A stretch of 64,000 bases of DNA, from assembly GCA_965231005.1 (NCBI GenBank), contig OZ246405.1, positions 1,095,829 to 1,159,828 on the forward strand, read 5' to 3'. Source of the DNA: an uncultured Gammaproteobacteria bacterium. Its GTDB lineage: Bacteria; Patescibacteriota; Patescibacteriia; Magasanikbacterales; UBA922. The notes under the pieces were generated by a model. It made no database searches. It was not told the DNA's origin and saw only the letters and a program-made list of their open reading frames with translations. The translations under genes and the position numbers were made by a program. Of this stretch, positions 16,508-34,705 are shown one piece after another (the first letter of the stretch is position 1; each line of letters begins with the position of its first letter).

Positions 16508-16517
16508 ATAATAGGAA

Positions 16518-17336: not shown

Positions 17337-17349
17337 ATCACTATTTTCA

Positions 17350-17724: not shown

Positions 17725-17726
17725 AC

Positions 17727-22460: not shown

Positions 22461-22475
22461 GTTGATTGAAAACGA

Positions 22476-22928
22476 TTATTTCAATTCTACTTTTCCACCT
22501 GCTTCTTCAATTTGCTTTTTCAATTCTTCTGCTTCTGCTTTTGCAACACCTTCTTTAATTGTTGCAGGAGCTCCGTCTACCAATGCTTTTGCATCTGCAA
22601 GACCAAGACCTGTTGCAGCTTTTACAGCTTTGATAACAGCAATCTTATTGCCACCAACATCTGTAAGTTCAACATTGAATTCTGACTTCTCTTCTGCTGC
22701 ACCAGCGTCTCCACCAGCTGCAGCACCAGGAGCTGCCATCATCATTGCAGGAGCAGCTGCGCTTACTCCAAATTTGTCTTCAAGAATTGAAACCAATTCT
22801 GAAAGATCAAGTACTGACATTTTTTCAATCTCTTCTACAAGAGACTTGAATTTTGCAGGGACTTCTACGTCCTTTTTTTCTTCTTTTGCAGGAGCTTCTG
22901 CTACTGCTGTTGCTTGTTCTTCTGACAT
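22476..22928 (-). CDS. rplL: 50S ribosomal protein L7/L12
   Basis: 150 aa; Ala-rich hinge and C-terminal ...[26 protein letters not shown]...[19 protein letters not shown]. Confidence 0.9.
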
Positions 22929-22937
22929 AGTAATAAT

Positions 22938-23465
22938 TTATGCTTCTGATTTAGAATCTTTAACTGCGTTCAAAACAGTAACCAATCCACGCAAGTTACC
23001 AGCAAGTACATTTACAAATCCAGAAACTGGAGCGTTCAATGTACCTACAAGCTGTCCAAGTAACTGTTGTTTGCTTGGAAGCGCAGAAAGTTGTTTGACC
23101 TTTGCTGCATCAATGAAGTCTCCTTCGAGAACTCCACCAAAAATGGAAACAACTTCGTGGTCTTTTGCAAAGTCTGCAACAACTTGCGCTGCAGCAACTT
23201 CGTCACCCATTCCAAAGAATGTAGCAACACCACCTTCAAATGCTTTTGTGTCAACATCGATATCAACATTTTTTAATGCTTGGCGGATAAGAGTTTTCTT
23301 TGTAGCCAAACATGCAATGTCTTGTTCACGACATTTTGCACGAAGCTCTTCTGTTTCTTGAACAGTAAGACCTTGAAAGTTTGCAAAGACAGCTGATTTT
23401 GCTTCTTTCAGCTGAGTAGTCAAATCTTGAACTTGTTGTTCTTTTTGTAGGCGTGTTTTTGCCAT
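22938..23465 (-). CDS. rplJ: 50S ribosomal protein L10
   Basis: 175 aa; adjacent upstream of rplL in canonical order; L10-like sequence. Confidence 0.85.
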   Translation of the reverse strand: MAKTRLQKEQQVQDLTTQLKEAKSAVFANFQGLTVQETEELRAKCREQDIACLATKKTLIRQALKNVDIDVDTKAFEGGVATFFGMGDEVAAAQVVADFAKDHEVVSIFGGVLEGDFIDAAKVKQLSALPSKQQLLGQLVGTLNAPVSGFVNVLAGNLRGLVTVLNAVKDSKSEA

Positions 23466-23650
23466 AATATTTCAAACAAAAAATCTGTGGATACCACAGA
23501 CATACGAGCTTCTCACGACCTTGAGGTAGTCTTGCGACTACGAGATATGCCTCGGCAGGATATTAAGTCTTTCAACCCCTGCTGTCTTTGGTATATGTTT
23601 GTGCGTACAGTGTAGCAGAGGTGCTTTCTTTTGTCAAGTGTCAACCATAA
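23466..23650 (-). promoter_or_regulatory. rplJ 5' leader / promoter region (possible L10 autoregulatory leader)
   Basis: About 185-nt untranslated region upstream of rplJ with GC-richer, hairpin-forming segments, unusually long for this genome; no covariance check possible. Confidence 0.25.
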
Positions 23651-23709
23651 GGAGTTGCAAATAAGCTTAACCTAGTAATATAATATGACTATTCATTAAG
23701 AATTTAATT

Positions 23710-23940
23710 ATGTGGCAAGAAAAACATAACAAATTAGAAAAAGAGTTTGAGTTTAATAATTTTGTAGAGTCAATCGATTTTCTCAATAAGATAACTCCCC
23801 TTGCAGAAGAAATGAACCATCATCCAGATGTTCTTATTTATGATTATAAAAAAGTCAAAATTTCACTTTCTACACATACTGAAAATAAGGTGACTGAAAA
23901 GGATCATGAACTTGCAAAAAAAATTGATAGATTGGCATAA
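23710..23940 (+). CDS. pterin-4a-carbinolamine dehydratase
   Basis: 76 aa; EEMNHHPDVLIYDYKKVKISLSTH fits the PCD/DCoH signature E-x3-H-H-P-x5-Y...H. Confidence 0.55.
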   Translation: MWQEKHNKLEKEFEFNNFVESIDFLNKITPLAEEMNHHPDVLIYDYKKVKISLSTHTENKVTEKDHELAKKIDRLA

Positions 23941-24006
23941 TCACCTTTACAAAAAGGCTAACTTGTGCTTTACTATGTCTACTATTTTTCAAAATTTTTG
24001 TGCTTT

Positions 24007-25071
24007 ATGAATAGAGAACACATGCGAGGAATTTTTGATCCCAAGGCCGATTCCGCTCTTTCTTTTAAAGAATTGCAAGAAAAAAAAGATCGGTATGGTC
24101 GCTTTGATGCTGCAAAAGAAATTCCTCGAATTACCGAAAATTTTTTTGGTGTTAAACCAAAATCATTTTCTATTCTCGAAGGTACAGAAAACATGATAGA
24201 CCACTTAATTTATGTAGCAACGATTGAAATTGACGAAAAAGAAGAAGAGGTGATTTTGAGAATCAATGCAGACTCACAAAGTAATCCATACATTCATGTT
24301 GAAGAGGCTCTTTTTAAAACCTGGTCTGAAAAAGGTATCGCCTCTCCAAAAATATTTTCTGCTACCACACGCGAGCAATCTGGACTTGAATACGATGTTA
24401 TGGTTATGCAGCGAGTTGGAACAATGAATCTAGAAGAGCATCTTTCAAAACATCCAGAACAAGCAGCTGAATGGGCAAAAAAAAGTGGAATGTTCCTTGC
24501 AAGCATTCACCAAGTTGAAGCTCCAGGATTTGGACATCTAGATTCTTCTGCTGCAAAAGAAGGACATTTAGAAGGACTTGAACCAACATGGAAAGATGCT
24601 GTACTTACACGAACAACTGAAACACTTGAATTCCTAGTTACAGAAGGATTTCTTTCTGAAGAAGAAAAAAAACAAATCGAGGAGCTATTAGATGAATATA
24701 AGGACTTGCTGAATATTGAGAAAGGCGTTACGCTTCATGGAGATTTTCATAATGCAAACATTGTCATTGATGACAAAAAAAATGAAATAGCTTCTGCAGT
24801 TGACCTTTCTCAGACGAAAATTGGAGATCCTATATTTGACCTTGCCTTTTATGCAACCTATTATGATGGAGATAATTTGGAAGCTTTTCTAAATGGATAT
24901 TTTGGAGGTACACACAGACCTGCAGATTTTGATAAAAAAATGGTATTATATGATCTACGAATCCAAATGAGTAAAGCAAAACTACGCAAACGATTTGGAT
25001 ATGATGCAAAAATTCAACGTGCTATTGAACGTATTCACTATGACATCAAACAACTACAACAAGGAATTTGA
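24007..25071 (+). CDS. phosphotransferase family protein (APH/choline-kinase-like kinase fold)
   Basis: HGDFHNANIVIDD Brenner motif and downstream DLS...GDPIFD; ORF extends to 23965. Confidence 0.5.
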   Translation: MNREHMRGIFDPKADSALSFKELQEKKDRYGRFDAAKEIPRITENFFGVKPKSFSILEGTENMIDHLIYVATIEIDEKEEEVILRINADSQSNPYIHVEEALFKTWSEKGIASPKIFSATTREQSGLEYDVMVMQRVGTMNLEEHLSKHPEQAAEWAKKSGMFLASIHQVEAPGFGHLDSSAAKEGHLEGLEPTWKDAVLTRTTETLEFLVTEGFLSEEEKKQIEELLDEYKDLLNIEKGVTLHGDFHNANIVIDDKKNEIASAVDLSQTKIGDPIFDLAFYATYYDGDNLEAFLNGYFGGTHRPADFDKKMVLYDLRIQMSKAKLRKRFGYDAKIQRAIERIHYDIKQLQQGI

Positions 25072-25894
25072 AATCGCAAAAGATATAATTAAAAAAGTGG
25101 GAGCTTTTTTAATTTCCAATCGTAACAACATTACTGTTGTTAATAGAAAAGAAGGTTTTCGATCTTTTGATTTTTCTACAAGTCAAGATCTAGCAGCAGA
25201 AAAGATGATCGTTGATGCAATACACAAAACATTCCCAAACGACCAGATTCTATCAGAAGAGACATTGTTTGAGACTGATATGACTCAAGATCGCTTTTGG
25301 ATTATTGATCCAATTGACGGGACAAAAAGATATGCAAATGGAAGTGATGTTTACTTTGTCTCAATCTCTCTGTGCATAAACCATGTAATTGAATTTTCCG
25401 TAGTGTATAGACCGTCATGTGATGAATTGATTTCAAGCAGAAAAGATCTTGGTGTTACAAAAAATGGTGAAAAAATTATCTTGATGAACAAAGACCAGAA
25501 AATAAAAGACAGTTTGATTCATTTTGGATATCCGCATCATAGGTCAAAACAAGTCACTTCAATTTACCATACAATGAAAGATAAAATACTCCACGCATCA
25601 AGAGATACGCTTCGTTCTGCTTGTGCTGTATTTGACACTGTTGAACTCGCTGCCGGAGCAGCTGGCGCACATATACTTCCTGATACAAAGCTCTGGGATG
25701 CTGCCTTTGGCATTTCATCAGCAAAGGAGCAGGGATTAATAATTTCAGATCCATTTGGAAAACCACTCGATCCATTTAGAACAGTAAATGGAGAATCAAA
25801 CTTTGATGTAATATTTGCCAAACCACAGATCCACAAACCACTTATTGAAATCACGTCAAAATACTTTGAACAACTGAAAGACCTAAAACCTTGA
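25040..25894 (+). CDS. inositol monophosphatase family protein
   Basis: WIIDPIDGTKRY motif; ORF extends to 24995. Confidence 0.6.
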   Translation: MTSNNYNKEFEIAKDIIKKVGAFLISNRNNITVVNRKEGFRSFDFSTSQDLAAEKMIVDAIHKTFPNDQILSEETLFETDMTQDRFWIIDPIDGTKRYANGSDVYFVSISLCINHVIEFSVVYRPSCDELISSRKDLGVTKNGEKIILMNKDQKIKDSLIHFGYPHHRSKQVTSIYHTMKDKILHASRDTLRSACAVFDTVELAAGAAGAHILPDTKLWDAAFGISSAKEQGLIISDPFGKPLDPFRTVNGESNFDVIFAKPQIHKPLIEITSKYFEQLKDLKP

Positions 25895-26021
25895 CGAAAT
25901 GAGAAGAATCTTATATACTCTTCTCGTGTTAATTGTTAATAGTTAACTGTTAACTGTTGTTAATGGCTCGTTTCCGCCTACGTTCATCTCTATGCTTGCT
26001 TCGCTTCGCATAGGTTCACTT

Positions 26022-26083
26022 TGGCGGACACGCGTCTAGTGGTCTGCGGATGACTTCCTTGCGAAACATCCTGGCGACAGTAC
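26022..26083 (+). pseudogene. degenerate partial copy of tRNA-Glu (D-arm and anticodon-arm segments only)
   Basis: Shares gtctagtggt (26034-26043) and catcctggcgacag (26067-26080) with the tRNA-Glu immediately downstream, in same order; no T-arm or acceptor. Confidence 0.35.
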
Positions 26084-26090
26084 AATTTAT

Positions 26091-26165
26091 GGCCCGTTCG
26101 TCTAGTGGTTAGGACACCAGGTTTTCATCCTGGCGACAGGGGTTCGATTCCCCTACGGGCTGCCA
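26091..26165 (+). tRNA. tRNA-Glu (anticodon TTC)
   Basis: 75 nt GGCCCGTTCGTCTAGTGGTTAGGACACCAGGTTTTCATCCTGGCGACAGGGGTTCGATTCCCCTACGGGCTGCCA; 7-bp acceptor stem (one G-U), anticodon stem CCAGG/CCTGG with loop TTTTCAT, T-loop TTCGATT, encoded CCA. Confidence 0.8.
26148..26163. repeat. attL-like 16-bp direct repeat (3' end of tRNA-Glu) ttcccctacgggctgc
   Basis: Exact 16-mer repeated at 32024-32039; 18-mer with 1 mismatch at 32107-32124. Confidence 0.6.
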
Positions 26166-26190
26166 AGAAGGAACAGATAGAACTCTGAGC

Positions 26191-26215
26191 AGCCGCGCAG
26201 CAAAGCGCGGTTTTT
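26191..26215 (+). terminator. terminator-like GC hairpin after tRNA-Glu
   Basis: gccgcgc-agcaaa-gcgcgg followed by ttttt. Confidence 0.4.
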
Positions 26216-26290
26216 GGTTCCAGCTACACTCTTGCTCCCGGTAACCGCACGTTAGAACTCTGGCAGCCGACACCAGACATGCGATCGCCC

Positions 26291-26320
26291 TTGACAAGGT
26301 TGCACAAGGTTGGCTATACT
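26291..26320 (+). promoter_or_regulatory. sigma70-like promoter for island cargo operon
   Basis: TTGACA (26291-26296), 18-nt spacer, TATACT (26315-26320), about 8 nt before ATG at 26328. Confidence 0.5.
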
Positions 26321-26327
26321 TGCGGGC

Positions 26328-28382
26328 ATGAACAACTCTGACACAAATGATTTCATCATGATACAGGATGCGGCAGCATACCTGGACGTGAGCGCGAGCA
26401 CTCTGCGACGTTGGGAGGCAACGGGCAAGCTCGTGCCGGTTCGTCATCCACAGAATAGATACCGCTACTACAAGCGCTCTCAGCTGGAGCCGCTGCGCCT
26501 TGACTACACGCACGCGGAGCTCGAGGAGCCACATCGGCTCTTCTCGACGGCCATCGCGAAGATCGATGGCAACAAGAAGCTGCGTGATCCCCAGCAGGAG
26601 GCGCACAGCCACGTCCGCAAGCATTTCGCGACTTCGGATGCCCCCGCGATCCTGCAGATTCCGGTTGGCTGCGGGAAGACAGGGGTCATGGCCACACTCC
26701 CGTTTGGGGTTGCTAAGGGACGAGTGCTGGTTATCGTGCCAAACACCACGATTCGGGACGGAGTCGCCTCGGCGCTGAACAGTTCTAGTGCCAGGGCGTT
26801 TCTGAGGAAAGCGGAGGTCTTGTCCGACTTCTCGCACGGACCATTCCGGGCGATCCTGGATGGACCGAACGCGAACCTCTCCGACTGCGCAGACAGCCAT
26901 TTCGTCGTGGCGAACATTCAACAGCTGGCAAGTCGCGCTGACAGGTGGTTACCGCAGTTTCCGGACGACTTCTTCGACATGATCTTGGTGGACGAAGGTC
27001 ACCATAACGCCGCTCAGAGTTGGACGAGGGTGTTCGAGCGCTTTCCGAAGGCGAAAGTCGTCAGTCTGACGGCGACACCATTTCGCAGCGATGGGAAGCG
27101 ACTCCTCGGCGAGGTGATCTATCGCTACAGCTATACCCAGGCGATGCTGAAGGGCTACATCAAGCGCCTGCATGCCATCAACGCCTCGCCCCAGGAGATA
27201 TACTTTACCTACCGAGGTGATGAACGTCGCCACACTCTTGAGGAGGTGCTGGCGCTGAGAGAAGAGGCGTGGTTTCGCAGAGGCGTAGCCCTCGCGCCCG
27301 AGTGCAACAGACATATCGTCGATGCCAGCATTCATCGCTGCCTAAAGCTCAGGGAGAAGACCGGCCTCAAGCACCAGGTCATTGCGGCGGCTTGTTCGGT
27401 CGACCATGCACGGCAGGTGGAGGCACTCTACGAGCAGCGTAACTTCTCGACACGCTGCATCCACAGCAAGATGCCGGCGGAGGAGCAGGAGGCAGCGCTC
27501 CTGGCGCTTAGGAGCCGAAAGATCGACTGCATCGTGCAGGTGCAGATGTTGGGTGAAGGATTCGACCACCCCCCACTCTCCGTCGGCGCGATCTTTCGAC
27601 CCTATCGAAGCCTATCGCCGTTTATCCAATTCGTCGGTCGGATCATGAGGGTCGTGCACCAGGGGGACCCGGAGCATCCAGACAACAACGGCTACATCGT
27701 CTCGCATGTTGGACTAAACAACGATACCAACTGGGCCGACTTCCGCGAAATCGACCTCGACGACCAAGCTGAGATCCATCGCTGGCTCACGGAAAGTGAC
27801 ACAGAGTCGAGTGGCTCCGGAGAGGGCGGCCACGGGAGGAGGTTCGACGGTGGGATGGCGGTCGCAGACGAGGTAATCAGCCACTTCATCACACAGTCGT
27901 ATCTCGATCCGAACGACGACCGCGTCCTTGAGACGATTCTCAACCAGAAGATCCCTGGCACTCCATTCACGCTCAGCGCGCTCGTCTCGAAAGACGAGTT
28001 GAAGGCAAGAATGCTCGACGCCCAGAAGGAGCTGGAGCAAGCGCCGGTCCCCATCATTCCGCAACCACAGGACGTCCGCCGCACGACGAGACGCCGGGTC
28101 AATCAGCGATCGCGATCCGTCGCGAAACGGGTTCTTGATGACCTCCACCTCGGACTGCGCGGCCGTGAGGTCTCGAGAGCTGTGGCAGGTGCCGGGGGGA
28201 AGGCCAATCTCGACGCGCTGGTGGTTCTGATGAGCCGCGCAGTGAACGAGTACCTCGGAGTCGAGAAGGGTGGGCGAAGTGAAGTCCCAGGAGGCGCGCT
28301 TCAAGAAGTTTACGATCAGCTTGACGCACTGGGCGACCAAGTCAGGGACGAGGTCGCAGCTTCCATTTCAGAAAATAAGTAA
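26328..28382 (+). CDS. HTH (MerR/excisionase-like) domain fused to SF2 helicase (ResIII/DEAH-like ATPase)
   Basis: N-term IQDAAAYLDVSASTLRRWEATGKL HTH. Helicase motifs: I VGCGKTG, II ILVDEGHH, III SLTATP, V/VI QMLGEGFDHP ... FVGRIMR. ORF listed from 26310, but the -10 lies inside that start. About 230-aa C-terminal extension unassigned. Confidence 0.65.
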   Translation: MNNSDTNDFIMIQDAAAYLDVSASTLRRWEATGKLVPVRHPQNRYRYYKRSQLEPLRLDYTHAELEEPHRLFSTAIAKIDGNKKLRDPQQEAHSHVRKHFATSDAPAILQIPVGCGKTGVMATLPFGVAKGRVLVIVPNTTIRDGVASALNSSSARAFLRKAEVLSDFSHGPFRAILDGPNANLSDCADSHFVVANIQQLASRADRWLPQFPDDFFDMILVDEGHHNAAQSWTRVFERFPKAKVVSLTATPFRSDGKRLLGEVIYRYSYTQAMLKGYIKRLHAINASPQEIYFTYRGDERRHTLEEVLALREEAWFRRGVALAPECNRHIVDASIHRCLKLREKTGLKHQVIAAACSVDHARQVEALYEQRNFSTRCIHSKMPAEEQEAALLALRSRKIDCIVQVQMLGEGFDHPPLSVGAIFRPYRSLSPFIQFVGRIMRVVHQGDPEHPDNNGYIVSHVGLNNDTNWADFREIDLDDQAEIHRWLTESDTESSGSGEGGHGRRFDGGMAVADEVISHFITQSYLDPNDDRVLETILNQKIPGTPFTLSALVSKDELKARMLDAQKELEQAPVPIIPQPQDVRRTTRRRVNQRSRSVAKRVLDDLHLGLRGREVSRAVAGAGGKANLDALVVLMSRAVNEYLGVEKGGRSEVPGGALQEVYDQLDALGDQVRDEVAASISENK

Positions 28383-28388
28383 GAAACT

Positions 28389-28622
28389 ATGCCACAAATA
28401 AAGAATATTGCCCGTTCAGCGACGATTGACACAGCCAAGCGACAACGGTCGTGCAAGCGGTGTCGGGCAACGAAATCGATTGACGCGGGTTCGGACCACT
28501 TGGTGGTCCACGAAGCCCAGCGCGACTTCTACTACTGTCAGCGACACGCTATCGAGATCCTGGACACGGCAATCATTCATTGCCAGACCCTGAAGAAGCA
28601 GCTGGAGGCGGCTGCGATCTAG
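28389..28622 (+). CDS. small hypothetical protein with CxxC ... CxxH pattern (possible zinc ribbon)
   Basis: 77-aa ORF starting 7 nt after helicase stop; SCKRCRATKS ... YYCQRH; could be non-coding shadow in GC-rich DNA. Confidence 0.3.
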   Translation: MPQIKNIARSATIDTAKRQRSCKRCRATKSIDAGSDHLVVHEAQRDFYYCQRHAIEILDTAIIHCQTLKKQLEAAAI

Positions 28623-28663
28623 CTGGTCTTGCTGTGAATCGGCTCCAACGCGCGAAGAATCTT

Positions 28664-30109
28664 ATGACTACCGTCTCGGATTTCTACAACCTCAACCGCA
28701 GCCAGGGTGACCTGGATTTTGTGGACGTCGATATCTACGGCGATGTTCCTGTCTTTCTCGATCCTCGTGCCCTCCGACTACTCCCGACGCAGTGGGCCGA
28801 CCATTGTGTGAGCCTACTCCAGGACTTCTTCACCGTTGTACTGGGGCACATCCAAGCTGGGCGCGACCAGGCGGCTCGTTCATTGCTGGCAGCTCTGCGA
28901 GAGCCGAATGAGACTCATCTTGGGTTGTCCAAGGGCCGCTCTCAGGGCCGCGCGCTCGGCCGCACTTCCGCGTCACATGTGTGGGAGGCCCTGGCCAAGA
29001 GTTCCGCGGCTCGAAGTGGGCTTCTTGTGGACTTGGAGGACACCGTTCTGCTCGTCGAGGGCATTTCTTCGGACATCGTGTCTGACATGGCCACCAACAT
29101 AGTTCGAGGACCACTGATTGAGTACACCCAGGATGTGTGTCGTCAATTCGGAATCCCTCTGGTACCAGGAGTCGCATCGGGACCGTTGTGGAACCCGCAG
29201 ACTGGGCGCTGGGATCAAGCCTTGGTGGAACTACCCAAACCGCCAAGTGGAAGACTGCTGCTGATTCCGAAGGTCATCGTCAGGTACAAGCTCGACTACG
29301 ATGTTGGCGAATACTACCGACACTTCCTGCTCGAGCATCTCAAGATGGTCGAACTGCGGGCGAACTCCGAGCTCGTCGAACTACTCAGAGACGGCCGGCG
29401 CAGGGTCACCAAGAAGAAGCTGATCGAGAAGTACGGCAACTCCAAGGCCGCAGTCGTGCGGCTCACTCAGCGCTACCCACAGATTCTCGAGGACTACCGC
29501 CGTGCAAAGGACCGCGGTGTCTCTCCTCCACTAGAGCACGACACCATCGCCGATCTAACTCGGACACAGGAGCCGCAGTGGGACTCTCTGCTGAACGACG
29601 TTGTCACCAAGAATCCCGGCAGATCCGACGCATCAGCCTACCATGCTGCGGTTGAACGACTGTTGTCGGCATCCTTTTATCCAAACTGGACGAATCCAAG
29701 GAAGGAGGAGCCGCTTCACGACGGCAGGAAGCGGATAGATATTACATACACGAATATGGCCTCGTCGGGGTTCTTCTCTTGGCTGTCGAATCACCATCCT
29801 AGCGGCTCGATCATGGTTGAGTGCAAGAACTACTCGGGTGACCCGGCAAATCCCGAGCTTGATCAGCTGTCAGGACGCTTCTCCCCCAACAGGGGCAAGG
29901 TTGGCTTCCTGGTCTGTCGCTCTGTGCAGAACCGATCCCTATTCGAGCAGCGGTGCAAGGACACCGCCAGCGATGGTCGCGGGTTCATTCTCGTGCTCGA
30001 CGACGATGACCTGAGACTGATTGTCCAATCGAGGAAGGACGGAAATGCCAAGGTCGTTGACCAGATGCTTCACGAACGATTCGATCGGTTGGTTGGACTG
30101 GGGCGATGA
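28664..30109 (+). CDS. hypothetical protein with C-terminal PD-(D/E)xK-like nuclease motif
   Basis: ORF listed from 28580; MTTVSDFYNL start at 28664 avoids overlap. C-terminal RIDITYTN...(13 aa)...IMVECKNYS fits D...ExK restriction-endonuclease-fold signature, followed by Q..GRFS..GFLV. N-terminal about 330 aa unassigned. Confidence 0.45.
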   Translation: MTTVSDFYNLNRSQGDLDFVDVDIYGDVPVFLDPRALRLLPTQWADHCVSLLQDFFTVVLGHIQAGRDQAARSLLAALREPNETHLGLSKGRSQGRALGRTSASHVWEALAKSSAARSGLLVDLEDTVLLVEGISSDIVSDMATNIVRGPLIEYTQDVCRQFGIPLVPGVASGPLWNPQTGRWDQALVELPKPPSGRLLLIPKVIVRYKLDYDVGEYYRHFLLEHLKMVELRANSELVELLRDGRRRVTKKKLIEKYGNSKAAVVRLTQRYPQILEDYRRAKDRGVSPPLEHDTIADLTRTQEPQWDSLLNDVVTKNPGRSDASAYHAAVERLLSASFYPNWTNPRKEEPLHDGRKRIDITYTNMASSGFFSWLSNHHPSGSIMVECKNYSGDPANPELDQLSGRFSPNRGKVGFLVCRSVQNRSLFEQRCKDTASDGRGFILVLDDDDLRLIVQSRKDGNAKVVDQMLHERFDRLVGLGR

Positions 30110-30113
30110 GGGC

Positions 30114-31532
30114 CTACATCCACGTTGGCATGAGAGCAACTTCTAGTTCACCGCCGCTCCGTAGGCCAACGCTGCGAGCAACTGCGACGACTGCTTCCCG
30201 TCGCTTCGTTGCATCGTTGGCTCGCAGCATCTCGTCGATACCCTCAGCGAATTGCAGGAGCTGCGGTGTTTTCGGATCGTCGGCGTCGGGATCTCCACCA
30301 ACCGACTCCATCCACTCCACCATGCGTAGCGCTTCTCTGAGGCCCTGGTGCTCCATGCCGTAGAGCTCCTCGTCGACGTAGCCCTGCGCGTACTCGGTGG
30401 CGAGAGAGCGAAGTCGCTCTTGCAGCGTGCGTCGTTGTCGCCGGAGCTCGGCAACGCGCTCAGCCGATGACTTGTCGCGGTCCCGTTTCTGCTCACGCAA
30501 CTGCTTCTTCAGCTTCCGGATGACGGTCTCGGGGAGCTTCATCTCGAGCAGCTTGTCGACGACGGCTTGGTCAAGCTCGTCCGCCTTCCTCGCGAATCGA
30601 CAGAGCTTCGTGTGGCAGCGGTAGTAGCGGTACTTCTTGCCGCTCTTCTTGCGGTGCTCGGAGCCAACCAGGTTGCCGGCGCAACGCGGACACTTCACCA
30701 GGCCAGAGAGAAGGAACAGGTGTTTGCGCGGCTTGATACCGTGTCCACCACCTCGGACGGCGAAGACCTGCTGTGCGCGGGTGAACAGGTCCTTGGAGAC
30801 GAGAGCCGGGTATGACCCAGGAAAGACACCGACCTTGGTGACCATGAGCCCGTGGTAGAAGGGGTTCTGCAGGATCCTGCACCACTTGGTCGCGGCGATC
30901 TTGTTGCCGTACCTGCTGACCAGGCCCTTGCGGTACATGGCGTCAGCGAGTTCGGGGCTGGTGAGCTTCCCTTCGCTCCACAGCTCGAAGGCCTCGCGGA
31001 CCTTCATGGCCCGCGCCGGGTCGAAGACCAAGCGGCGGTTCTCCCAGAGGTAGCCAACTGGTGCTGGGCCGTTCCACAGGCCCTTCCTGAGCCGCTGCTC
31101 GAGGCTCTTGCGCACTTCGTGCGCCATGTTCGCGCTAGCGAACTCTGCGTTTGCAATCATAATATCTTCTGTAAATTGACCAGCGGGAGAGTCGTCGATG
31201 TGCTCAACAACGGAGTGGACCTTCGCACCGTGCTGTCGCAGCAGCGCGCGGTACACGTTGTACTGGTAGGTCCTGCGAGACAGGCGGTCGATCTTGTGCA
31301 CCAGGATGCCTGTGACGGCCGGGTCCTTCTTGACCCTCGCAATAGCGTCCAGCAAGCCTGGCCTCACGACGTTCTGCTTATAGGCGCTCTCGACGTCGGT
31401 GTAGTTCTCGACGATCTTGAGTCCGTGGTCATGCGCGTAACGCTTCATCGCGTGTAGTTGCGCTGGGATGGACAGCTCTCTGGCTGCCTGCGGGCCGGTA
31501 GAGACCCGCGCATAGGTTACGATATACATAGA
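30114..31532 (-). CDS. large serine recombinase (resolvase-domain integrase)
   Basis: N-term YARVSTGPQ...IPAQL catalytic-Ser resolvase domain (start MSMYIVTYARVST; ORF extends to 31562), recombinase domain, zinc ribbon CPRCAG...YYRCHTKLC, C-terminal coiled coil. Confidence 0.8.
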   Translation of the reverse strand, partial: SMYIVTYARVSTGPQAARELSIPAQLHAMKRYAHDHGLKIVENYTDVESAYKQNVVRPGLLDAIARVKKDPAVTGILVHKIDRLSRRTYQYNVYRALLRQHGAKVHSVVEHIDDSPAGQFTEDIMIANAEFASANMAHEVRKSLEQRLRKGLWNGPAPVGYLWENRRLVFDPARAMKVREAFELWSEGKLTSPELADAMYRKGLVSRYGNKIAATKWCRILQNPFYHGLMVTKVGVFPGSYPALVSKDLFTRAQQVFAVRGGGHGIKPRKHLFLLSGLVKCPRCAGNLVGSEHRKKSGKKYRYYRCHTKLCRFARKADELDQAVVDKLLEMKLPETVIRKLKKQLREQKRDRDKSSAERVAELRRQRRTLQERLRSLATEYAQGYVDEELYGMEHQGLREALRMVEWMESVGGDPDADDPKTPQLLQFAEGIDEMLRANDATKRREAVVAVARSVGLRSGGELEVALMPTWM

Positions 31533-31631
31533 CATTGTCTGGTTAGATGAGTAACCAGCCATCTTGCCAGAATCGCTGTTTTTGTGTAATATGTATCGTA
31601 TCTGAAAGCTGAGGCTCTGAGAGGTATCACA

Positions 31632-31650
31632 ATGAACACACCGTGTTCAT
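31632..31650. promoter_or_regulatory. perfect palindrome ATGAACAC-acc-GTGTTCAT upstream of recombinase gene (operator-like)
   Basis: 8-bp inverted repeat with 3-bp spacer, about 100 nt upstream of recombinase start on its promoter side. Confidence 0.35.
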
Positions 31651-31854
31651 TTGCATACCCCTTCCTGTGGATCGAGCTGTTTCCAGTTCTCTCCACTCGT
31701 CTCGGCTCAGGCACGTCAGCAAAAGACTACGCTGCAAGCAGCAGCGGGCCGTCGCGAGAGAGAGACTTCCGCGGCAGCGCCGGCAATTGATTACCAGTTG
31801 CTGCGTTCAAGCAGTTCCTCAGGAGGGTTCTAAACTCATGCCTACATGCCTGCG

Positions 31855-31891
31855 AAAAAATGAGTTGAGCTTTTGCTCAGCTCATTTTTTT
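31855..31891. terminator. terminator-like hairpin with flanking A/T runs (bidirectional)
   Basis: aaaaaatgagttgagc-tttt-gctcagctcattttttt; 11-bp stem with one G-U. Confidence 0.4.
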
Positions 31892-31900
31892 GTTGCAAGT

Positions 31901-31914
31901 AAGGGGAATCGAAC
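31901..31914. repeat. inverted partial copy of tRNA-Glu T-loop/acceptor core (gttcgattcccctt on minus strand)
   Basis: Reverse complement of aaggggaatcgaac matches tRNA 26142-26154 (gttcgattcccct) 13/13; not a functional tRNA (no T-stem pairing). Confidence 0.3.
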
Positions 31915-32023
31915 TGGGGATGGTAAGGGGCAGCGCCCCTTACATTTCTGGGGGTGACCGAGCGCAAGCGAGGACAAGAGGGGCGGAAGCCCCTATTGGG
32001 AGCGAGAATACGCGACGTGAGAT

Positions 32024-32039
32024 TTCCCCTACGGGCTGC
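32024..32039. repeat. attR-like 16-bp direct repeat of tRNA-Glu 3' end
   Basis: ttcccctacgggctgc identical to 26148-26163. Confidence 0.6.
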
Positions 32040-32106
32040 AGAAAGTAAAAATCCCGAGCTTGCTCGAGGATTTTTATTTTTAAAGCACGGACGGGGAAGA
32101 CACAGT

Positions 32107-32124
32107 ATTCCCCTACGGCCTGCC
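32107..32124. repeat. second att-like copy (attcccctacggcctgcc, 1 mismatch to tRNA 3' end)
   Basis: Matches tRNA 26147-26164 with g->c change; 68 bp after first attR copy. Confidence 0.45.
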
Positions 32125-32175
32125 GGCAGGCAGGGCTGCAGAGATAAAAAAATCCAAATTTATTTGGTTTTTTTA

Positions 32176-32203
32176 TTGACTTTTTCTCAAAAAATAGCAT
32201 AAT
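32176..32203 (+). promoter_or_regulatory. sigma70-like promoter TTGACT-16-CATAAT
   Basis: ttgact (32176-32181), cataat (32198-32203); 10 nt upstream of small ORF 32214-32420. Confidence 0.35.
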
Positions 32204-32213
32204 AGAAGTACCA

Positions 32214-32420
32214 ATGCTCATCCTGGAGGACCTCATGACAAAGACCAAGAAAAAAAAGCCGCCCCCCGGCCAAACTTGGGACCCACACGCACTGTTGCGT
32301 GCACGCCCTCCAGTGGATCCGGAACGAGAGGCGCTAAACAAGCGTCTGCGTGAAGCGATCCCTCGTGGGGCTGCCCAACCCGGCGGCATCATCTGCGACG
32401 AGCGCCCTCCTCAGGAGTAG
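32214..32420 (+). CDS. small Pro/Arg-rich hypothetical ORF (doubtful)
   Basis: 68 aa, no recognisable features; possibly a transcribed non-coding leader. Confidence 0.2.
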   Translation: MLILEDLMTKTKKKKPPPGQTWDPHALLRARPPVDPEREALNKRLREAIPRGAAQPGGIICDERPPQE

Positions 32421-32604
32421 GCGCCCGTACCTGCAATACTTTTGCGACGTTGTTCCCGAGCACCGGGAGCACTCATCGCACTCGCGGTGTACGGGAACAA
32501 CAAAAGAACATCTTATCTAAAGATGTTTTTTTGATTTATAACATTGACAAACCAAACAAAACATGAGATAAATACCCTACTTTCTCTCATCAAGAAAGCC
32601 TGTG

Positions 32605-32761
32605 CTGGGATGGCATAGGAACGCTCTTTCCAAAGGTTGGAACTTCTACTGGGATGGTAGTCGAGAGCTGAAACATTTTTCCCCATGATGAGCATACACG
32701 GGATGTGGATGTGGGGACGGGTGGTGGTTCAATCGAATGGATCACAGTATCTCTGGGATGG
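32605..32761. repeat. three copies of CTGGGATGG (32605, 32649, 32753) plus gggatgtggatgtgggg; iteron-like cluster
   Basis: Exact 9-mer three times within 160 bp in an AT-rich stretch upstream of ORF 32795-33676. Confidence 0.3.
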
Positions 32762-32794
32762 AGATAAGCCTGTAGTTTCACCAAAGAGGATGAC

Positions 32795-33676
32795 ATGTCA
32801 ACCACAACATTGACTTTCAACGAGGCCTGGAGCTCTGGGCCGCAAGTGTGGCTCCTGGAAGAAGGGAATGTCGGTGTCGAGCTGATGTACCTGTGGGCCA
32901 TGGGCCAAGCAACGTCACTGCAAGATCTGGAAGACCGGCTGATTGCCCGCTTCCCGAAAACCTGTCTGCTGATGCGCGACAACCACAAGGCGCTGCTGAA
33001 ATTCTGGACCGAACGGTACAAGCTGACCGCTCCGAGAACGAAGCATCCGCCAGAGGTGATCGAGCGGACACTGGATCGGTTCAAAGAATTGGCACTCGCC
33101 GGAACAAATACAGGGCGTAGGTCTGGTCTTTCGAAGTACTACATGCAAATCCTCAGCAAGGATACATGGGAGGAAAAGCCCCTGAGCTCCATGCATCGGT
33201 CTTCAGGCAAAACCCAATGCCTGGTGCCAGATAGATGGACCAAACGCAAAGTGTTTCACCCTCACTTCACTGCCTCAATGGGCAAACTCGGTGAGGTCGA
33301 TGTGAGGATCGCTCGTATCAGCGGACGAAGGAATCGCAAATTCTGGATCGGATTCTGCTTTGCACAGCGTGATCTGACTGCGCAGAAATGTGCAGAACTC
33401 CAGAAGTTGCCATTCACCCACTGGAGCGAAGCGACCATCCCGAGAACGGTTCTCAAAGTCGATGCTGCATTCGAGCTGATCATGTTCATGCCAGAAACAG
33501 CAATCGAGGCACGTATTCGTCAAACAGTGCGTGCAGTCAACTCGGGCCCCCTTTCTGACAATGCACGCTCTATCAAGTCATCCAAACAAATCGAACTGCT
33601 GCGTCAGATGAGCGACTGGCTCGAGGCGAACGGGATTCCGTGTACGTACCTCGAAGAAAATCGCATTGGGCTGTAG
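32795..33676 (+). CDS. hypothetical protein (293 aa, GC-rich)
   Basis: Long ORF with GC-rich codon usage, RBS-like aagagga 8 nt upstream; no recognisable motif. Confidence 0.4.
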   Translation: MSTTTLTFNEAWSSGPQVWLLEEGNVGVELMYLWAMGQATSLQDLEDRLIARFPKTCLLMRDNHKALLKFWTERYKLTAPRTKHPPEVIERTLDRFKELALAGTNTGRRSGLSKYYMQILSKDTWEEKPLSSMHRSSGKTQCLVPDRWTKRKVFHPHFTASMGKLGEVDVRIARISGRRNRKFWIGFCFAQRDLTAQKCAELQKLPFTHWSEATIPRTVLKVDAAFELIMFMPETAIEARIRQTVRAVNSGPLSDNARSIKSSKQIELLRQMSDWLEANGIPCTYLEENRIGL

Positions 33677-33896
33677 CTCAAAAACTCATCCCCGATACGT
33701 CGGGGGGGCAGGATGAGCCAACAACAGAACTCAAAGGAGATGGACACGACCTGCCCGTGTCCTCCCATACTGTTTCTTTAATAGAGGAAATAGTTAGGAT
33801 AAAAAACTACCACAAGCTGGTGGTTTTTTATTATCAGCAGCTTGCAAAAAAACAGTTTCACCATTATTATAAATCTACCCACACTTAACCAAGGAG

Positions 33897-34574
33897 ATGA
33901 ACGTGAAACATTCAAACGTTCTTTTCATTGCGATGGCTACAGCGTCGGTCATCCTTTTCACATCTTGCACTGGCAAAAAGGAAGCCACCCGGAAAACGGC
34001 AATTGTTGTCGAAACCACCCCAAGACCAAGAAAGCCAAATCCACCTCAACCGCCACCTTCCACTCCAAAATCACCCCAACCTCCACCAATCGACCTCTCG
34101 CAGTACAGGTACATCAAGACCGCCTGCACCACCTGTGGTTGCCCAAGAAGATACCTTGCACGCCAAGGAGATTCAGTGGTGTTGGTGACAGCAGCTGAAC
34201 TCAACAAAAATGCTCTCTGGAAGATCCACACAGGTAGCTTGAGAAGCAGGTCTGGACAATCGATCGCAACAACAGTCTTTGAACACTTTCGAGGCGGCTG
34301 TCTGGATTGGGGCAATGGTGGAACCTTGATCATCAACAGAGGAGGCTGCTTCAGAGCTTCAGGCACTCATTGGTCCCGAAGGACAAGACTCCCCAACCGT
34401 GCTCGAATCGGAGTTCAGGGGGCTGTTGGCTATCGAAGCTTTGGCAGCGGAAGATACGACAAGCACTACCTGGACTTTCAAGGACGTGGAAACTGTCACC
34501 CTTCTTTAATTCACGAAGATCGAGTGAATCGGAATACAGTCGGAGTATTTTGGCTGGTCCGAAAAGAACCATAA
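33897..34574 (+). CDS. lipoprotein with Pro-rich linker (hypothetical)
   Basis: Signal peptide with lipobox-like ILFTSC, then TPRPRKPNPPQPPPSTPKSPQPPP linker; AAGGAG RBS. Confidence 0.45.
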   Translation: MNVKHSNVLFIAMATASVILFTSCTGKKEATRKTAIVVETTPRPRKPNPPQPPPSTPKSPQPPPIDLSQYRYIKTACTTCGCPRRYLARQGDSVVLVTAAELNKNALWKIHTGSLRSRSGQSIATTVFEHFRGGCLDWGNGGTLIINRGGCFRASGTHWSRRTRLPNRARIGVQGAVGYRSFGSGRYDKHYLDFQGRGNCHPSLIHEDRVNRNTVGVFWLVRKEP

Positions 34575-34705
34575 GTAATCACAACAAGAACAACAACCCA
34601 CAACAGCGGCACCCTCCTCGGAGGCTCTGCCGCTTTTCTAATTAAAAAAGCTCCAAACCTGTTCAGATCTAAAGCTTTTTCCCCTTTTTCGTTTTTGCTT
34701 GTGTC

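What the first reader, a model, noticed from the sequence alone, without database searches (positions are those of the whole stretch)
26091..32124. tRNA-Glu-anchored GC-rich integrative island bounded by a 16-bp direct repeat
The 16-mer ttcccctacgggctgc forming the 3' end of tRNA-Glu (26148-26163) recurs exactly at 32024-32039, and again with one mismatch at 32107-32124. The enclosed 5.9 kb is visibly far GC-richer than the flanking chromosome. It carries its own sigma70-like promoter (26291-26320), a three-gene cargo operon, and a large serine recombinase at the distal end reading inward. This is the architecture of a site-specifically integrated element with attL and attR. Large serine recombinases are less commonly tRNA-targeted than tyrosine integrases, which adds interest.
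Basis: partly seen in the sequence, partly recalled or inferred. Interest (0 to 1): 0.75.

Follow-up and report, generated by a model that had tools for sequence, protein, structure and literature searches.

The report
Serine-recombinase island in tRNA-Glu gene
A 5.9-kb piece of foreign, GC-rich DNA carrying likely anti-virus genes sits at the end of a tRNA gene in a tiny-genome (CPR/Patescibacteria) bacterium, and it was probably put there by its own serine recombinase, an enzyme type that rarely targets tRNA genes.

Summary
tRNA-Glu(UUC) lies at 26091-26165. Its last 16 nt recur exactly at 32024-32039 and with one mismatch at 32108-32123. The 5.86 kb between the first two copies has GC 0.58 and GC3 0.68-0.77. 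The host has GC 0.35 and GC3 0.17-0.27.

The segment is a discrete integrated element with an intact large serine recombinase (LSR). A near-consensus promoter drives three genes: a MerR-HTH SF2 helicase, a conserved 77-aa partner, and a DUF8370/PDC-M36A protein with a D..ExK nuclease-like motif.

The junctions appear in three assemblies. Syntenic Patescibacteria relatives (Candidatus Magasanikbacteria) have rplJ-tRNA-Glu-tsaD with only 48 nt between tRNA and tsaD, so the site is empty there.

New here: the recombinase belongs to a clade (40-50% identity, in genomes that are Patescibacteria where named) whose members sit tail-to-tail with different tRNA genes. That holds for 6 of 8 loci. A conserved GAAC lies 38 nt after the T-arm GTTC.

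Corrections: the third repeat is a decayed relic outside the island. The DNA to its right (32.1-44.5 kb) is also non-native, so the right flank is not native chromosome.

Not shown: excision, an empty site in the same species, or cargo function. I rate it a new variant of a known kind, of moderate interest.

The parts
26091..26165 (+). tRNA-Glu(UUC) gene, the integration target. It is intact after integration, and its encoded CCA is completed by island-side bases.
   Evidence: ARAGORN. Rfam RF00005, 64 bits.
26148..26163 (+). attL core: the 16-bp direct repeat TTCCCCTACGGGCTGC, made of the last 15 nt of the tRNA plus 1 nt.
26164..26212 (+). Island-side arm (P') next to the tRNA. It holds a conserved GAAC at 26180-26183 and a terminator-like hairpin at 26191-26212 that now follows the tRNA.
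   Evidence: The hairpin is. GAAC lies exactly 38 nt after the T-arm GTTC in the window, L006, L217 and L001, and in none of about 170 other tRNA contexts. This end is about 75% alike to the L006 element end by eye.
26291..26320 (+). Sigma-70-like promoter of the cargo operon (TTGACA-18-TATACT).
   Evidence: 11 of 12 consensus positions match.
26328..28382 (+). Cargo gene 1: a 684-aa protein with an N-terminal MerR/HTH_17 DNA-binding domain fused to an SF2 helicase (ResIII + Helicase_C).
   Evidence: Pfam. PADLOC gives weak hits to type IV REase, PbeA and mad1. PHROG phrog_16 helicase scores 6e-57. It is 57% identical at the protein level to plasmid genes of Mycobacterium, Mesorhizobium and Paracoccus.
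28389..28622 (+). Cargo gene 2: a 77-aa Cys-rich protein, the conserved partner of the helicase.
   Evidence: Homologous small ORFs lie directly after the helicase homologues on three plasmids, at 28-37% identity and E from 6e-4 to 2e-7. It has no family hit.
28664..30109 (+). Cargo gene 3: a 481-aa DUF8370 / PADLOC PDC-M36A protein with a C-terminal D359..E386-x-K388 motif (PD-(D/E)xK-like).
   Evidence: PADLOC 6.3e-39. PF28123 is in the precomputed table. PHROG phrog_27295 scores 3.5e-141. A weak Mrr_cat hit has E = 0.056. Neighbours of its homologues are restriction-modification, helicase and LSR genes.
30114..31562 (-). Large serine recombinase. The longest ORF is 482 aa, and gene callers start it at 31529 or 31535. 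It is the presumed integrase of the element.
   Evidence: Resolvase 6e-27, Recombinase 1.5e-9 and Zn_ribbon_recom 5.7e-10. The YARVSTGPQ catalytic serine motif is present, and S10, R8, D81, R82 and R85 are conserved across the clade. PHROG phrog_95 integrase scores 6e-76.
31563..32023 (.). Non-coding island end. It lies upstream of the recombinase gene and holds the P arm of the attachment site and a two-way hairpin at 31866-31884.
   Evidence: No credible ORF is present.
32024..32039 (+). attR core: the second exact copy of the 16-mer. It is followed by AT-rich host-type sequence without CCA (CAGAAAG...).
32040..32107 (+). The host-type flank that followed the tRNA gene before the island came in (B' arm), with a hairpin and T-run terminator at 32053-32068.
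   Evidence: Low-GC genomes with the same tRNA end show the same style: C[AG]A followed by a terminator.
32108..32123 (+). Third, degenerate copy (15 of 16). It is a relic of an earlier event at this site and lies outside the island. The G-to-C change would break acceptor pair 3:70. It is followed by the palindrome CCTGCCGGCAGG and a second 'GGGCTGCAGA..TAAAAA + hairpin' unit.
   Evidence: families D9 and D10.

Best explanation
The segment 26164-32039 is a small integrative genetic element. It holds 5,860 bp of element-specific DNA plus one 16-bp core. [quoted passage not shown]

The inferred mechanism is as follows. The element's own large serine recombinase recombined an attP on a circular form of the element with an attB. 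That attB is made of the tRNA's T-arm and acceptor 3' strand plus the downstream flank. The crossover lies inside the 16-bp identity, probably near the discriminator base.

Integration left the tRNA intact. The element supplied the bases that complete an encoded CCA, and also a new terminator. The original downstream flank was displaced to the far end.

The element carries no phage, conjugation or replication genes. Its cargo is a promoter-driven operon of a MerR-HTH SF2 helicase, its conserved 77-aa partner, and a DUF8370/PDC-M36A nuclease-like protein. This is most likely an anti-phage or anti-plasmid defence cassette.

The recombinase belongs to a clade whose members sit tail-to-tail with various tRNA genes in small-genome bacteria. 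Targeting the 3' end of tRNA genes therefore appears to be a property of the clade.

Shown: the anatomy, the foreign composition, absence from relatives, junction reproducibility, and the clade-wide tRNA association. Inferred: that the LSR did the integration, where the crossover lies, whether the element is still mobile, and that the cargo is a defence system.
For: - Exact 16-bp repeat, with 0 of 100 shuffles reaching the observed count, and sharp identity borders.
- Composition: GC 0.58 against 0.35, GC3 0.68-0.77 against 0.17-0.27, tetranucleotide r 0.52 against 0.88-0.94.
- An intact LSR with all three domains and the catalytic serine.
- At attL the tRNA ends ...GCTG-CCA. At attR the repeat is followed by CAG plus an AT-rich terminator. 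Low-GC genomes with the same tRNA end, including the closest tRNA (L097, 70 of 72), have the same arrangement.
- Assemblies: the window's host and island proteins have exact copies on an NCBI 1.23-Mb contig, the likely source of the window. ENA contig ERZ930061 covers both junctions and differs by 2 SNPs. The ERZ930065 contig covers the left junction at 100% identity.
- Empty site: Candidatus Magasanikbacteria GCA_002773135.1 has tsaB-x-p729-rplL-rplJ-tRNA-Glu(+)-terminator-tsaD-prs-dnaE, with 48 nt between tRNA and tsaD. GCA_964496615.1 also lacks every island gene between rplJ and tsaD.
- Clade evidence: relatives at 40-50% identity are separated from the next group (31% identity or less; E-values jump from 8e-69 to 8e-34). 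A tRNA gene on the opposite strand lies 46-80 nt after the stop codon in L003 (Pro), L006 (a tRNA with a group I intron), L007 (Asn) and L217 (Ala). It lies 1.9 kb away with cargo in between in L001 (Ser), and 4 kb away in the window. Among distant LSRs in IMG/VR the figure is 1 of 38.
- GAAC sits exactly 38 nt after the T-arm GTTC in 4 of 6 of these contexts (GAAG in a fifth) and in none of about 170 other tRNA contexts.
- Cargo: PADLOC PDC-M36A at 6e-39, a conserved D..ExK motif, a weak Mrr_cat hit, and homologues lying beside type I and type III RM genes, an MTase-Mrr fusion and UvrD-like helicases. The helicase and 77-aa pair is conserved on plasmids.
Against: - No empty site, attP circle or excision product from the same species could be looked for.
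- The relatives with an empty site have a different acceptor stem, so they lack this exact attB.
- No recombination directionality factor was identified.
- The 16-bp identity is long for a serine recombinase. The related elements show no tRNA-end repeat above background.
- No clear dyad symmetry appears in the reconstructed attP.
- The three assemblies come from one project (PRJEB17505) and may be the same population.
- The cargo's defence role rests on HMM similarity to an unvalidated candidate family, on a motif and on gene neighbourhoods. No structure could be obtained. The helicase is not a conserved neighbour of DUF8370 genes (0 of 47 loci).
Confidence: 0.82

Rival explanations
1. The mobile or acquired unit is larger than the reader's island. 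On this view the whole 18.4 kb between tRNA-Glu and tsaD (26164-44500) is one composite island, or a tandem array at one hotspot. The 5.9-kb segment would be its newest module, and region B (32125-44470) an older, partly adapted, recombinase-less module whose att relic is the third repeat.
For: - Region B is also absent from both syntenic relatives.
- Its GC is 0.45-0.57 and its GC3 0.41-0.75, against a host GC of 0.35.
- Its left border is the degenerate third repeat plus a second terminator unit.
- The tRNA-tsaD interval differs in each of the three genomes compared.
Against: - No fourth repeat marks the right border. The best candidate, at 44465, matches 10 of 16 by eye, and the search with up to 2 mismatches finds only three copies.
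- Region B has no recombinase.
- Its tetranucleotide signature is close to the host's (r 0.82-0.87) and unlike the island's (A versus B r = 0.62).
- The exact 16/16 repeat and the sharp GC steps delimit the 5.9 kb as a unit on its own.
Confidence: 0.2
2. The element is a dead remnant. It integrated once but can no longer excise or move, for instance because it lacks a directionality factor or a transfer route. The recombinase gene would then be a passenger on its way to decay, or kept for another role.
For: No RDF, relaxase, replication or packaging gene was detected. The element is seen in only one population.
Against: - The recombinase ORF is full length with conserved catalytic residues.
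- The repeats are identical at 16 of 16, and the composition is wholly unadapted to the host, which argues for a recent arrival.
- RDFs of serine integrases are small and diverse, and cannot be recognised by homology (general knowledge).
Confidence: 0.25
3. The serine recombinase did not insert the island. On this view the DNA entered through another route, such as a tyrosine integrase since lost, or homologous recombination at the conserved tRNA sequence. The recombinase would then be cargo, a resolvase or an invertase.
For: - A 16-bp tRNA-end repeat is the classic signature of tyrosine integrases (Mageeney 2020; Mycobacterium prophage survey).
- Related LSR elements show no such repeat.
- The 24-nt tRNA end is shared across phyla, so homology-based capture is conceivable.
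Against: - No tyrosine recombinase lies in 26-32 kb.
- The protein has the Recombinase and zinc-ribbon domains typical of integrases, not of small resolvases or invertases.
- Six of eight clade members lie in the same orientation relative to a tRNA gene, against 1 of 38 distant LSRs.
- The element-end motif at a fixed distance from the T-arm is conserved.
Confidence: 0.06
4. The island is an assembly chimera, formed by joining contigs from a GC-rich organism and the low-GC host at a shared tRNA sequence.
For: - The tRNA-Glu 3' half is identical in more than 120 species, including GC-rich Rhodobacteraceae.
- The Logan contig stops at 25923, and one ENA contig stops 800 nt inside the island.
Against: - Both junctions are identical in the NCBI 1.23-Mb contig and in ENA contig ERZ930061. 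The left junction is also in ERZ930065, a different run.
- A chimera would need two joins, both at a repeat of only 16 nt. By eye that is shorter than the k = 127 suggested by the contig name k127_78539 (inference).
- The contig returns to host synteny (tsaD-prs-dnaE) afterwards.
Confidence: 0.02

Closest known systems
Integrative genetic elements that use large serine recombinases (S-Int IGEs), as catalogued by TIGER/Islander (Mageeney et al. 2020, PMC7192596)
   Same: Both have a three-domain serine integrase at one end, a short repeat at both ends, foreign composition, and an integration that preserves the target gene. That survey counted 14 of 297 S-Int elements at t(m)RNA genes.
   Different: The survey called tRNA use by S-Ints previously unreported and in need of experimental proof. 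Here the host is a CPR bacterium, the element is very small (5.9 kb), and a whole clade shows the tRNA association, with several tRNA identities and a shared end motif.
SCC-type cassette chromosomes (SCCmec and its enterococcal counterpart) moved by the CcrAB/CcrC large serine recombinases
   Same: From general knowledge of SCC elements: a small cargo cassette without phage or conjugation genes, inserted by an LSR at the 3' end of a conserved housekeeping gene, bounded by direct repeats of about 15-18 bp, with extra repeat copies marking tandem or relic elements.
   Different: The target is tRNA-Glu, not rlmH/orfX. There is one recombinase. NCBIfam scores for CcrA, CcrB and CcrC are 53-97 bits against cut-offs of 700-900, so the protein is not a Ccr. 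The cargo is defence-like rather than resistance genes.
tRNA-anchored genomic islands and satellites with tyrosine integrases (P4-like islands, PICIs, many defence islands)
   Same: Insertion at the 3' end of a tRNA gene, a 16-bp repeat that rebuilds the tRNA, defence-type cargo, and repeated use of one tRNA hotspot.
   Different: The recombinase belongs to the serine family, whose chemistry and site logic differ (short sites with a 2-bp crossover and no arm-type sites). No tyrosine recombinase is present.
Temperate-phage serine integrases (phiC31, Bxb1, A118, TP901-1)
   Same: The same domain architecture. PDB sequence hits go to the TP901-1 catalytic domain and the A118 recombinase/zinc-ribbon domains. 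PHROG calls it an integrase.
   Different: Identity to phage integrases is 33% or less. The element has no phage genes. The phage enzymes target ORFs or intergenic sites and share only a few bases between attP and attB (general knowledge), whereas 16 bp are shared here.
PADLOC candidate defence family PDC-M36 (protein A) / Pfam DUF8370
   Same: Cargo gene 3 matches the PDC-M36A model over its full length (6e-39).
   Different: The family is a candidate with no described mechanism. No paper in the searchable library mentions it. In this island it is coupled to a helicase and small-protein module that is not its usual neighbour.

Membership tests
Integrative element mobilised by a large serine recombinase | Encodes a serine recombinase with a catalytic resolvase domain plus the Recombinase and zinc-ribbon/coiled-coil C-terminal domains, and an intact catalytic serine | tested here: met
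   Pfam Resolvase 6e-27, Recombinase 1.5e-9 and Zn_ribbon_recom 5.7e-10. The YARVST motif is present.
Integrative element mobilised by a large serine recombinase | Bounded by attL and attR that share a core sequence | tested here: met
   An exact 16-bp repeat at 26148-26163 and 32024-32039, beyond chance.
Integrative element mobilised by a large serine recombinase | Absent from the same locus in related genomes (empty site) | tested here: met
   Two syntenic Patescibacteria relatives lack it. In GCA_002773135.1 tRNA-Glu is 48 nt from tsaD. Caveat: these are other genera with a different acceptor stem, not the same species.
Integrative element mobilised by a large serine recombinase | Excision to a circular form, with attP and attB junctions observable | not testable with these tools
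The junction patterns are absent from IMG/VR.
Integrative element mobilised by a large serine recombinase | A recombination directionality factor for excision | tested here: inconclusive
   No family hit for any small ORF. The only small conserved ORF (77 aa) travels with the helicase on plasmids that show no LSR in the stretches examined, so it is unlikely to be the RDF.
SCC-type cassette chromosome (Ccr recombinases) | The recombinase is a CcrA, CcrB or CcrC orthologue | tested here: not met
   NCBIfam CcrB 97 bits against a cut-off of 900, CcrA 68 against 700, CcrC 53 against 900.
SCC-type cassette chromosome (Ccr recombinases) | Integration at the 3' end of rlmH (orfX) | tested here: not met
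   The target is tRNA-Glu.
tRNA-targeting tyrosine-integrase genomic island | A tyrosine (Phage_integrase) recombinase next to the att site | tested here: not met
   No such domain appears in any ORF of 26-32 kb.
Temperate phage or prophage with a serine integrase | Virion, packaging, lysis or phage replication genes | tested here: not met
   There are only four genes. Their PHROG hits are helicase, an unknown-function family and integrase.
XisF-type developmentally excised element | The recombinase is a XisF equivalog | tested here: not met
   NCBIfam XisF 98.6 bits against a cut-off of 375.
PADLOC PDC-M36 candidate defence system / DUF8370 | The protein matches the PDC-M36A / DUF8370 profile | tested here: met
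   PADLOC PDLC04597 at 6.3e-39, covering 4-458 of 481 aa. PF28123 is in the precomputed annotation.
PADLOC PDC-M36 candidate defence system / DUF8370 | Demonstrated protection against phage | not testable with these tools
   No literature was found. Only neighbourhood evidence is available: RM and helicase genes beside the homologues.

The most novel reading that the evidence does not exclude
The recombinase represents a clade of large serine integrases that are tRNA-3'-end specialists. They would use the universally conserved T-arm (GTTC) as one outer half-site motif and a matching GAAC on the element as the other. Retargeting from one tRNA to another would then need only small changes around the acceptor strand. 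With this, minimal GC-rich cassettes could shuttle into CPR/Patescibacteria genomes from unrelated high-GC bacteria, perhaps their hosts or neighbours, by exploiting tRNA ends that are identical across phyla.
Probability: 0.25. Interest if true: 0.75.

Novelty: new variant of a known kind. Interest (0 to 1): 0.55.

Why it matters
Serine integrases are valued genome-engineering tools, and their natural target range matters. Use of tRNA genes by this family has so far been only a rare computational call that still needs proof (PMC7192596).

This finding gives a clean case with reconstructable attP and attB sequences. It also points to a clade whose members sit at six different tRNA genes with a shared geometry, which makes the question directly testable with simple plasmid recombination assays.

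It further shows that a 1.2-Mb CPR genome can take up a wholly unadapted cassette, with GC3 0.7 against a host GC3 of 0.2. The cassette's helicase module is 57% identical to plasmid genes of Actinomycetota and Alphaproteobacteria. This bears on how these reduced, symbiotic bacteria acquire defence genes and from whom.

Tried and rejected
- An exact look-up of the 482-aa recombinase found nothing because gene callers use later starts. The 473-aa NCBI version could not be located either.
- A search of GTDB species genomes with the upstream suhB-like protein found no relative. The host lineage is poorly sampled, and every host protein I looked up is alone, or effectively alone, in its 90%-identity cluster.
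- I first thought the GC-richer 130 nt upstream of the tRNA, with its partial tRNA copy, might be foreign or an integration scar. I rejected this because the Magasanikbacteria relative has the same kind of partial copy upstream of its tRNA-Glu.
- I looked for tRNA-end repeats around the related recombinases in L001, L003, L006, L007 and L217. Nothing exceeded background.
- I looked for dyad symmetry in the reconstructed attP and found nothing convincing.
- I tested whether the helicase and DUF8370 genes form a conserved pair. They do not: 0 of 47 metagenome loci.
- I looked for the island's proteins near tRNA-Glu in 120 species that share the tRNA 3' half, mainly Rhodobacteraceae and Bacteroidota. 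There were none, so no donor was identified.
- A single-sequence AlphaFold model of the DUF8370 protein was unusable (pLDDT 33). PDB sequence and profile searches found nothing. Hits from the search of protein representatives cannot be used for structure prediction, so no deeper model was possible.
- The attP and attB junction patterns are not in IMG/VR.
- Literature searches for PRJEB17505, PDC-M36 and DUF8370 returned nothing.

Full report
**1.

ARAGORN finds a single tRNA in the 64-kb window, tRNA-Glu(UUC) at 26091-26165. Rfam confirms it at 64 bits. Its last 16 nt as written in the finding, TTCCCCTACGGGCTGC (26148-26163), recur exactly at 32024-32039 and with one mismatch at 32108-32123. 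No other match at up to 2 mismatches exists in the window, and none of 100 shuffles gives three matches. Identity between the first two copies is exactly 16 nt with sharp borders.

GC rises from 0.34-0.36 to 0.56-0.61 between 26 and 32 kb. GC3 of the four enclosed genes is 0.68-0.77, against 0.17-0.27 for host genes. The strand-symmetric tetranucleotide profile correlates with the host at r = 0.52, whereas host segments give 0.88-0.94. The promoter TTGACA-18-TATACT at 26291-26320 matches 11 of 12 positions.

**2. Anatomy**

Immediately after the tRNA come 27 nt of island DNA and then a terminator-like hairpin at 26191-26212. The promoter follows, and then three closely spaced + strand genes.

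- 26328-28382 encodes 684 aa: an N-terminal MerR/HTH_17 domain fused to an SF2 helicase (ResIII 8e-26, Helicase_C 4e-12).
- 28389-28622 encodes 77 aa with no family hit.
- 28664-30109 encodes 481 aa. Local Pfam gives no hit, but it matches PADLOC PDC-M36A at 6e-39. It is listed as PF28123 DUF8370 in a precomputed table and matches PHROG 27295 at 3.5e-141.

On the - strand, 30114-31562 encodes a large serine recombinase (LSR) with Resolvase, Recombinase and Zn_ribbon_recom domains. It has the catalytic YARVST motif and matches the PHROG integrase family (6e-76) and the TP901-1 and A118 integrase structures. A 460-nt non-coding stretch separates its start from the second repeat.

At attL the tRNA reads ...GGGCTG-CCA. 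At attR the repeat is followed by CAGAAAG and an AT-rich hairpin with a T-run. The tRNA gene is therefore intact, and the flank that originally followed it now lies at the far end. Low-GC genomes with the same tRNA end also lack an encoded CCA and have a terminator right after the gene.

**3. It is not an assembly artefact**

Host and island proteins have exact copies on an NCBI contig of 1,232,850 nt. The NCBI copies of the recombinase and helicase differ in length (different start calls), and the 77-aa ORF has no NCBI copy. An ENA contig from run ERR2281801 (66,408 nt) matches window 15040-35894 with two substitutions, at 29921 and 30158. The window's DUF8370 protein is the NCBI version. The window is therefore a separate assembly, and both agree on both junctions. 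A contig from the sister run ERR2281800 matches 15040-26973 at 100% and covers the left junction. All three come from one project, so they may sample one population.

**4. Host and empty site**

TsaD (44575-45585) has its best named relatives in Patescibacteria. At 69% identity it matches PIR74708.1 of Candidatus Magasanikbacteria.

That genome (GCA_002773135.1, locus L135) has the same backbone as the window: tsaB, a 196-aa gene, a 729-aa gene, rplL, rplJ, tRNA-Glu(UUC) on the + strand, a terminator, tsaD, prs, and dnaE on the - strand. tblastn confirms the protein matches. There, tsaD starts 48 nt after the tRNA. A second relative (GCA_964496615.1, L134) has rplJ, tRNA-Glu, four NAD and sugar-kinase genes, tsaD and prs. 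Neither has any homologue of the four island genes.

The island is thus an insertion relative to the lineage's backbone. The caveat is that these are different genera and their tRNA acceptor stem differs, so this exact attB is not present in them.

**5. The recombinase clade is tied to tRNA genes**

In a 5.8-billion-protein search, the recombinase has a distinct set of relatives at 40-50% identity. Those that carry a source name come from Patescibacteria and Candidatus Uhrbacteria. The next group is at 31% identity or less, and E-values jump from 8e-69 to 8e-34. I examined seven distinct loci carrying relatives.

- In L003, L006, L007 and L217 a tRNA gene lies on the opposite strand 46-80 nt after the recombinase stop codon. 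These are tRNA-Pro, a tRNA split by a group I intron (Rfam RF00028), tRNA-Asn and tRNA-Ala.
- In L001 a tRNA-Ser lies in the same orientation 1.9 kb away, with three genes in between. This is the same layout as in the window, where 4 kb of cargo lies between recombinase and tRNA.
- L009 and L218 have no tRNA nearby. L218 looks plasmid-like or conjugative.

As a control, only 1 of 38 distant LSRs (33% identity or less) in IMG/VR has a tRNA within 400 nt downstream.

The recombinase gene, or in L001, L003 and L006 a short stretch around it, is GC-richer than its surroundings in L001, L003, L006 and L009.

Aligning the tRNA ends plus downstream DNA shows GAAC exactly 38 nt after the T-arm GTTC, which is 17 nt past the discriminator. 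This holds in the window (26180-26183), L006, L217 and L001, with GAAG in L003. By eye, the window and L006 ends are about 75% alike through the terminator.

GTTC-N34-GAAC is a dyad centred within about 2 nt of the discriminator, at the 3' edge of the 16-bp identity. I infer that the attachment site spans the T-arm, the acceptor 3' strand and about 20 nt of flank, a size typical of serine integrases (general knowledge). I also infer that the universally conserved T-arm supplies one half-site motif. This is a hypothesis and has not been demonstrated.

Unlike the window, the relatives show no tRNA-end repeat above background. That fits the 2-bp crossover of this enzyme family, but it leaves their exact borders unknown.

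**6. Cargo**

The DUF8370 family is large: 2,052 clusters at 50% identity with E of 1e-3 or better. It has conserved D359, E386 and K388. The C-terminal 161 aa give a weak Mrr_cat hit at E = 0.056.

In 80 metagenome loci with homologues at 49-59% identity, the gene is never next to a window-type helicase (0 of 47 loci with room upstream). It lies beside type I HsdS, type III Res, an MTase-Mrr fusion, UvrD-like helicases and, in three loci, other LSRs. This is the pattern of a stand-alone defence gene.

The helicase is 57% identical in protein, and 67-70% in DNA, to genes on plasmids of Mycobacterium, Mesorhizobium and Paracoccus. Each of those is followed by a small ORF homologous to the 77-aa protein. 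The 77-aa ORF is therefore real, and the helicase-plus-small-protein pair is a mobile module from the gene pool of high-GC bacteria.

A defence role for the operon is the most likely reading, at about 0.5. It is not shown. Structure prediction without an alignment failed, and PDB searches were empty.

**7. The third repeat and the right flank**

The copy at 32108-32123 has a G-to-C change that would break acceptor pair 3:70. It is followed by the palindrome CCTGCCGGCAGG and by a second 'GGGCTGCAGA..TAAAAA + hairpin' unit resembling the one after copy 2. It lies outside the island, 68 nt beyond attR, and is best read as a relic of an earlier event at this tRNA.

Beyond it, 32.1-44.5 kb encodes secreted Cys-rich and RCC1-repeat proteins. 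This stretch is absent from both relatives. It has intermediate and mosaic GC3 but a host-like tetranucleotide signature, and it contains no recombinase. It is a separate, older or differently sourced acquisition.

**8. Comparison with known systems**

The element works like an S-Int integrative element. In layout it most resembles SCC-type cassettes: an LSR, the 3' end of a housekeeping gene, repeats of about 16 bp, and relic repeats. It is not a member of that family, since the Ccr scores are far below cut-off and the target differs. It mimics the classic tRNA islands of tyrosine integrases without having one.

Mageeney et al. 2020 found 4.9% of S-Int elements at t(m)RNA genes. [quoted passage not shown] A Mycobacterium prophage survey likewise finds tRNA sites only for tyrosine integrases.

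I found no paper linking serine recombinases with integration in Patescibacteria. One search returned a single paper, on viral ecology in an alpine lake, which I did not read.

**9. Verdict**

The finding is real and correctly interpreted, with corrected borders of 26164-32039. It is a new variant of a known kind: a minimal LSR-driven cassette at a tRNA gene in a CPR genome, belonging to a clade that appears specialised for tRNA 3' ends. Interest is moderate, because the architecture is familiar, while the enzyme-target combination and the clade pattern are unusual and directly testable.

Noticed in passing
window 32125-44470: A second non-native block lies right of the island. It encodes secreted Cys-rich proteins (Dicty_CTDC repeats), a 1097-aa protein with a cytochrome-c-like N-terminus and RCC1 repeats, and a 756-aa secreted protein. 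GC is 0.45-0.57 and GC3 is mosaic at 0.23-0.75, but the tetranucleotide signature is host-like (r 0.82-0.87). No recombinase is present. The block is absent from both syntenic relatives.
   Followed up: partly
window 47030-48019 (prs); L135 11125-12126; L134 8387-9337: The ribose-phosphate pyrophosphokinase gene sits at the same syntenic position (tsaD-prs-dnaE) in all three genomes. It is GC-rich in the window (0.57 against 0.35) and in the Magasanikbacteria relative (0.63 against 0.47). The three proteins are only 33-45% identical, while the neighbouring TsaD proteins are 64-69% identical. This suggests repeated replacement of prs in place by foreign versions.
   Followed up: partly
window 26033-26043 and 26068-26081; L135 9785-9806: Partial copies of the 5' part of tRNA-Glu lie 10-90 nt upstream of the real gene, ahead of a TACAAT box. 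In the window these are the D-arm (11 of 11) and CATCCTGGCGACAG (14 of 14). In the relative it is the first 22 nt, exactly. This is a conserved native feature of unknown meaning and is not part of the island.
   Followed up: partly
window 32119-32134: The relic third repeat is interrupted by about 16 nt containing the perfect palindrome CCTGCCGGCAGG. If this is removed, the sequence aligns with the copy-2 unit TTCCCCTACGGGCTGCAGA..TAAAAA + hairpin.
   Followed up: no
L001, L003, L006, L009 (recombinase genes at about 10001-11500 of each): The genes of this recombinase clade are GC-richer than the loci around them, by 7-12 points (gene against whole locus). In L001, L003 and L006 the GC-rich stretch extends about 2-3 kb around the gene. 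The window shows the same pattern, with a 23-point gap (0.58 against 0.35). This is the opposite of the usual AT bias of mobile DNA.
   Followed up: partly
L299 6728-9120; L300 6740-8979; L301 9746-12011: The MerR-helicase plus small-protein pair is a mobile two-gene module on plasmids of Mycobacterium, Mesorhizobium and Paracoccus. It lies next to a tyrosine-recombinase trio plus a DNA methyltransferase in one case, and next to an IS6 transposase in another. Its function is undescribed.
   Followed up: partly
window 29921 and 30158; L132 end = window 26973; L133 end = window 25923: The only two differences between the window and the ENA contig over 20.8 kb both lie inside the island. One assembly of the sister run breaks 800 nt inside the island, and the Logan contig breaks just before the tRNA leader. 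The 77-aa ORF also occurs on a separate 758-nt ENA contig. Together these may hint at population heterogeneity for the island.
   Followed up: no
L006 11535-11810 (- strand): A tRNA gene interrupted by a group I intron (Rfam RF00028, 49.5 bits, just under the gathering score of 50) lies directly downstream of a clade recombinase. ARAGORN does not call this tRNA.
   Followed up: partly
window 25927-25958, 45577-45717, 48278-48395: AT-rich TTAATTGTTAA-type repeats, direct and inverted at 72-88% identity, occur just upstream of the tRNA leader, after tsaD and near dnaE. They may be host intergenic signals (families D5 and I1, I2, I5).
   Followed up: no
L167, L170, L187 (metagenome loci): In these three loci the DUF8370 homologue has a homologous 534-546-aa neighbour immediately upstream. 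The L167 neighbour scanned is an unrelated large serine recombinase. This defence-like gene may therefore often travel on LSR-borne cassettes.
   Followed up: no
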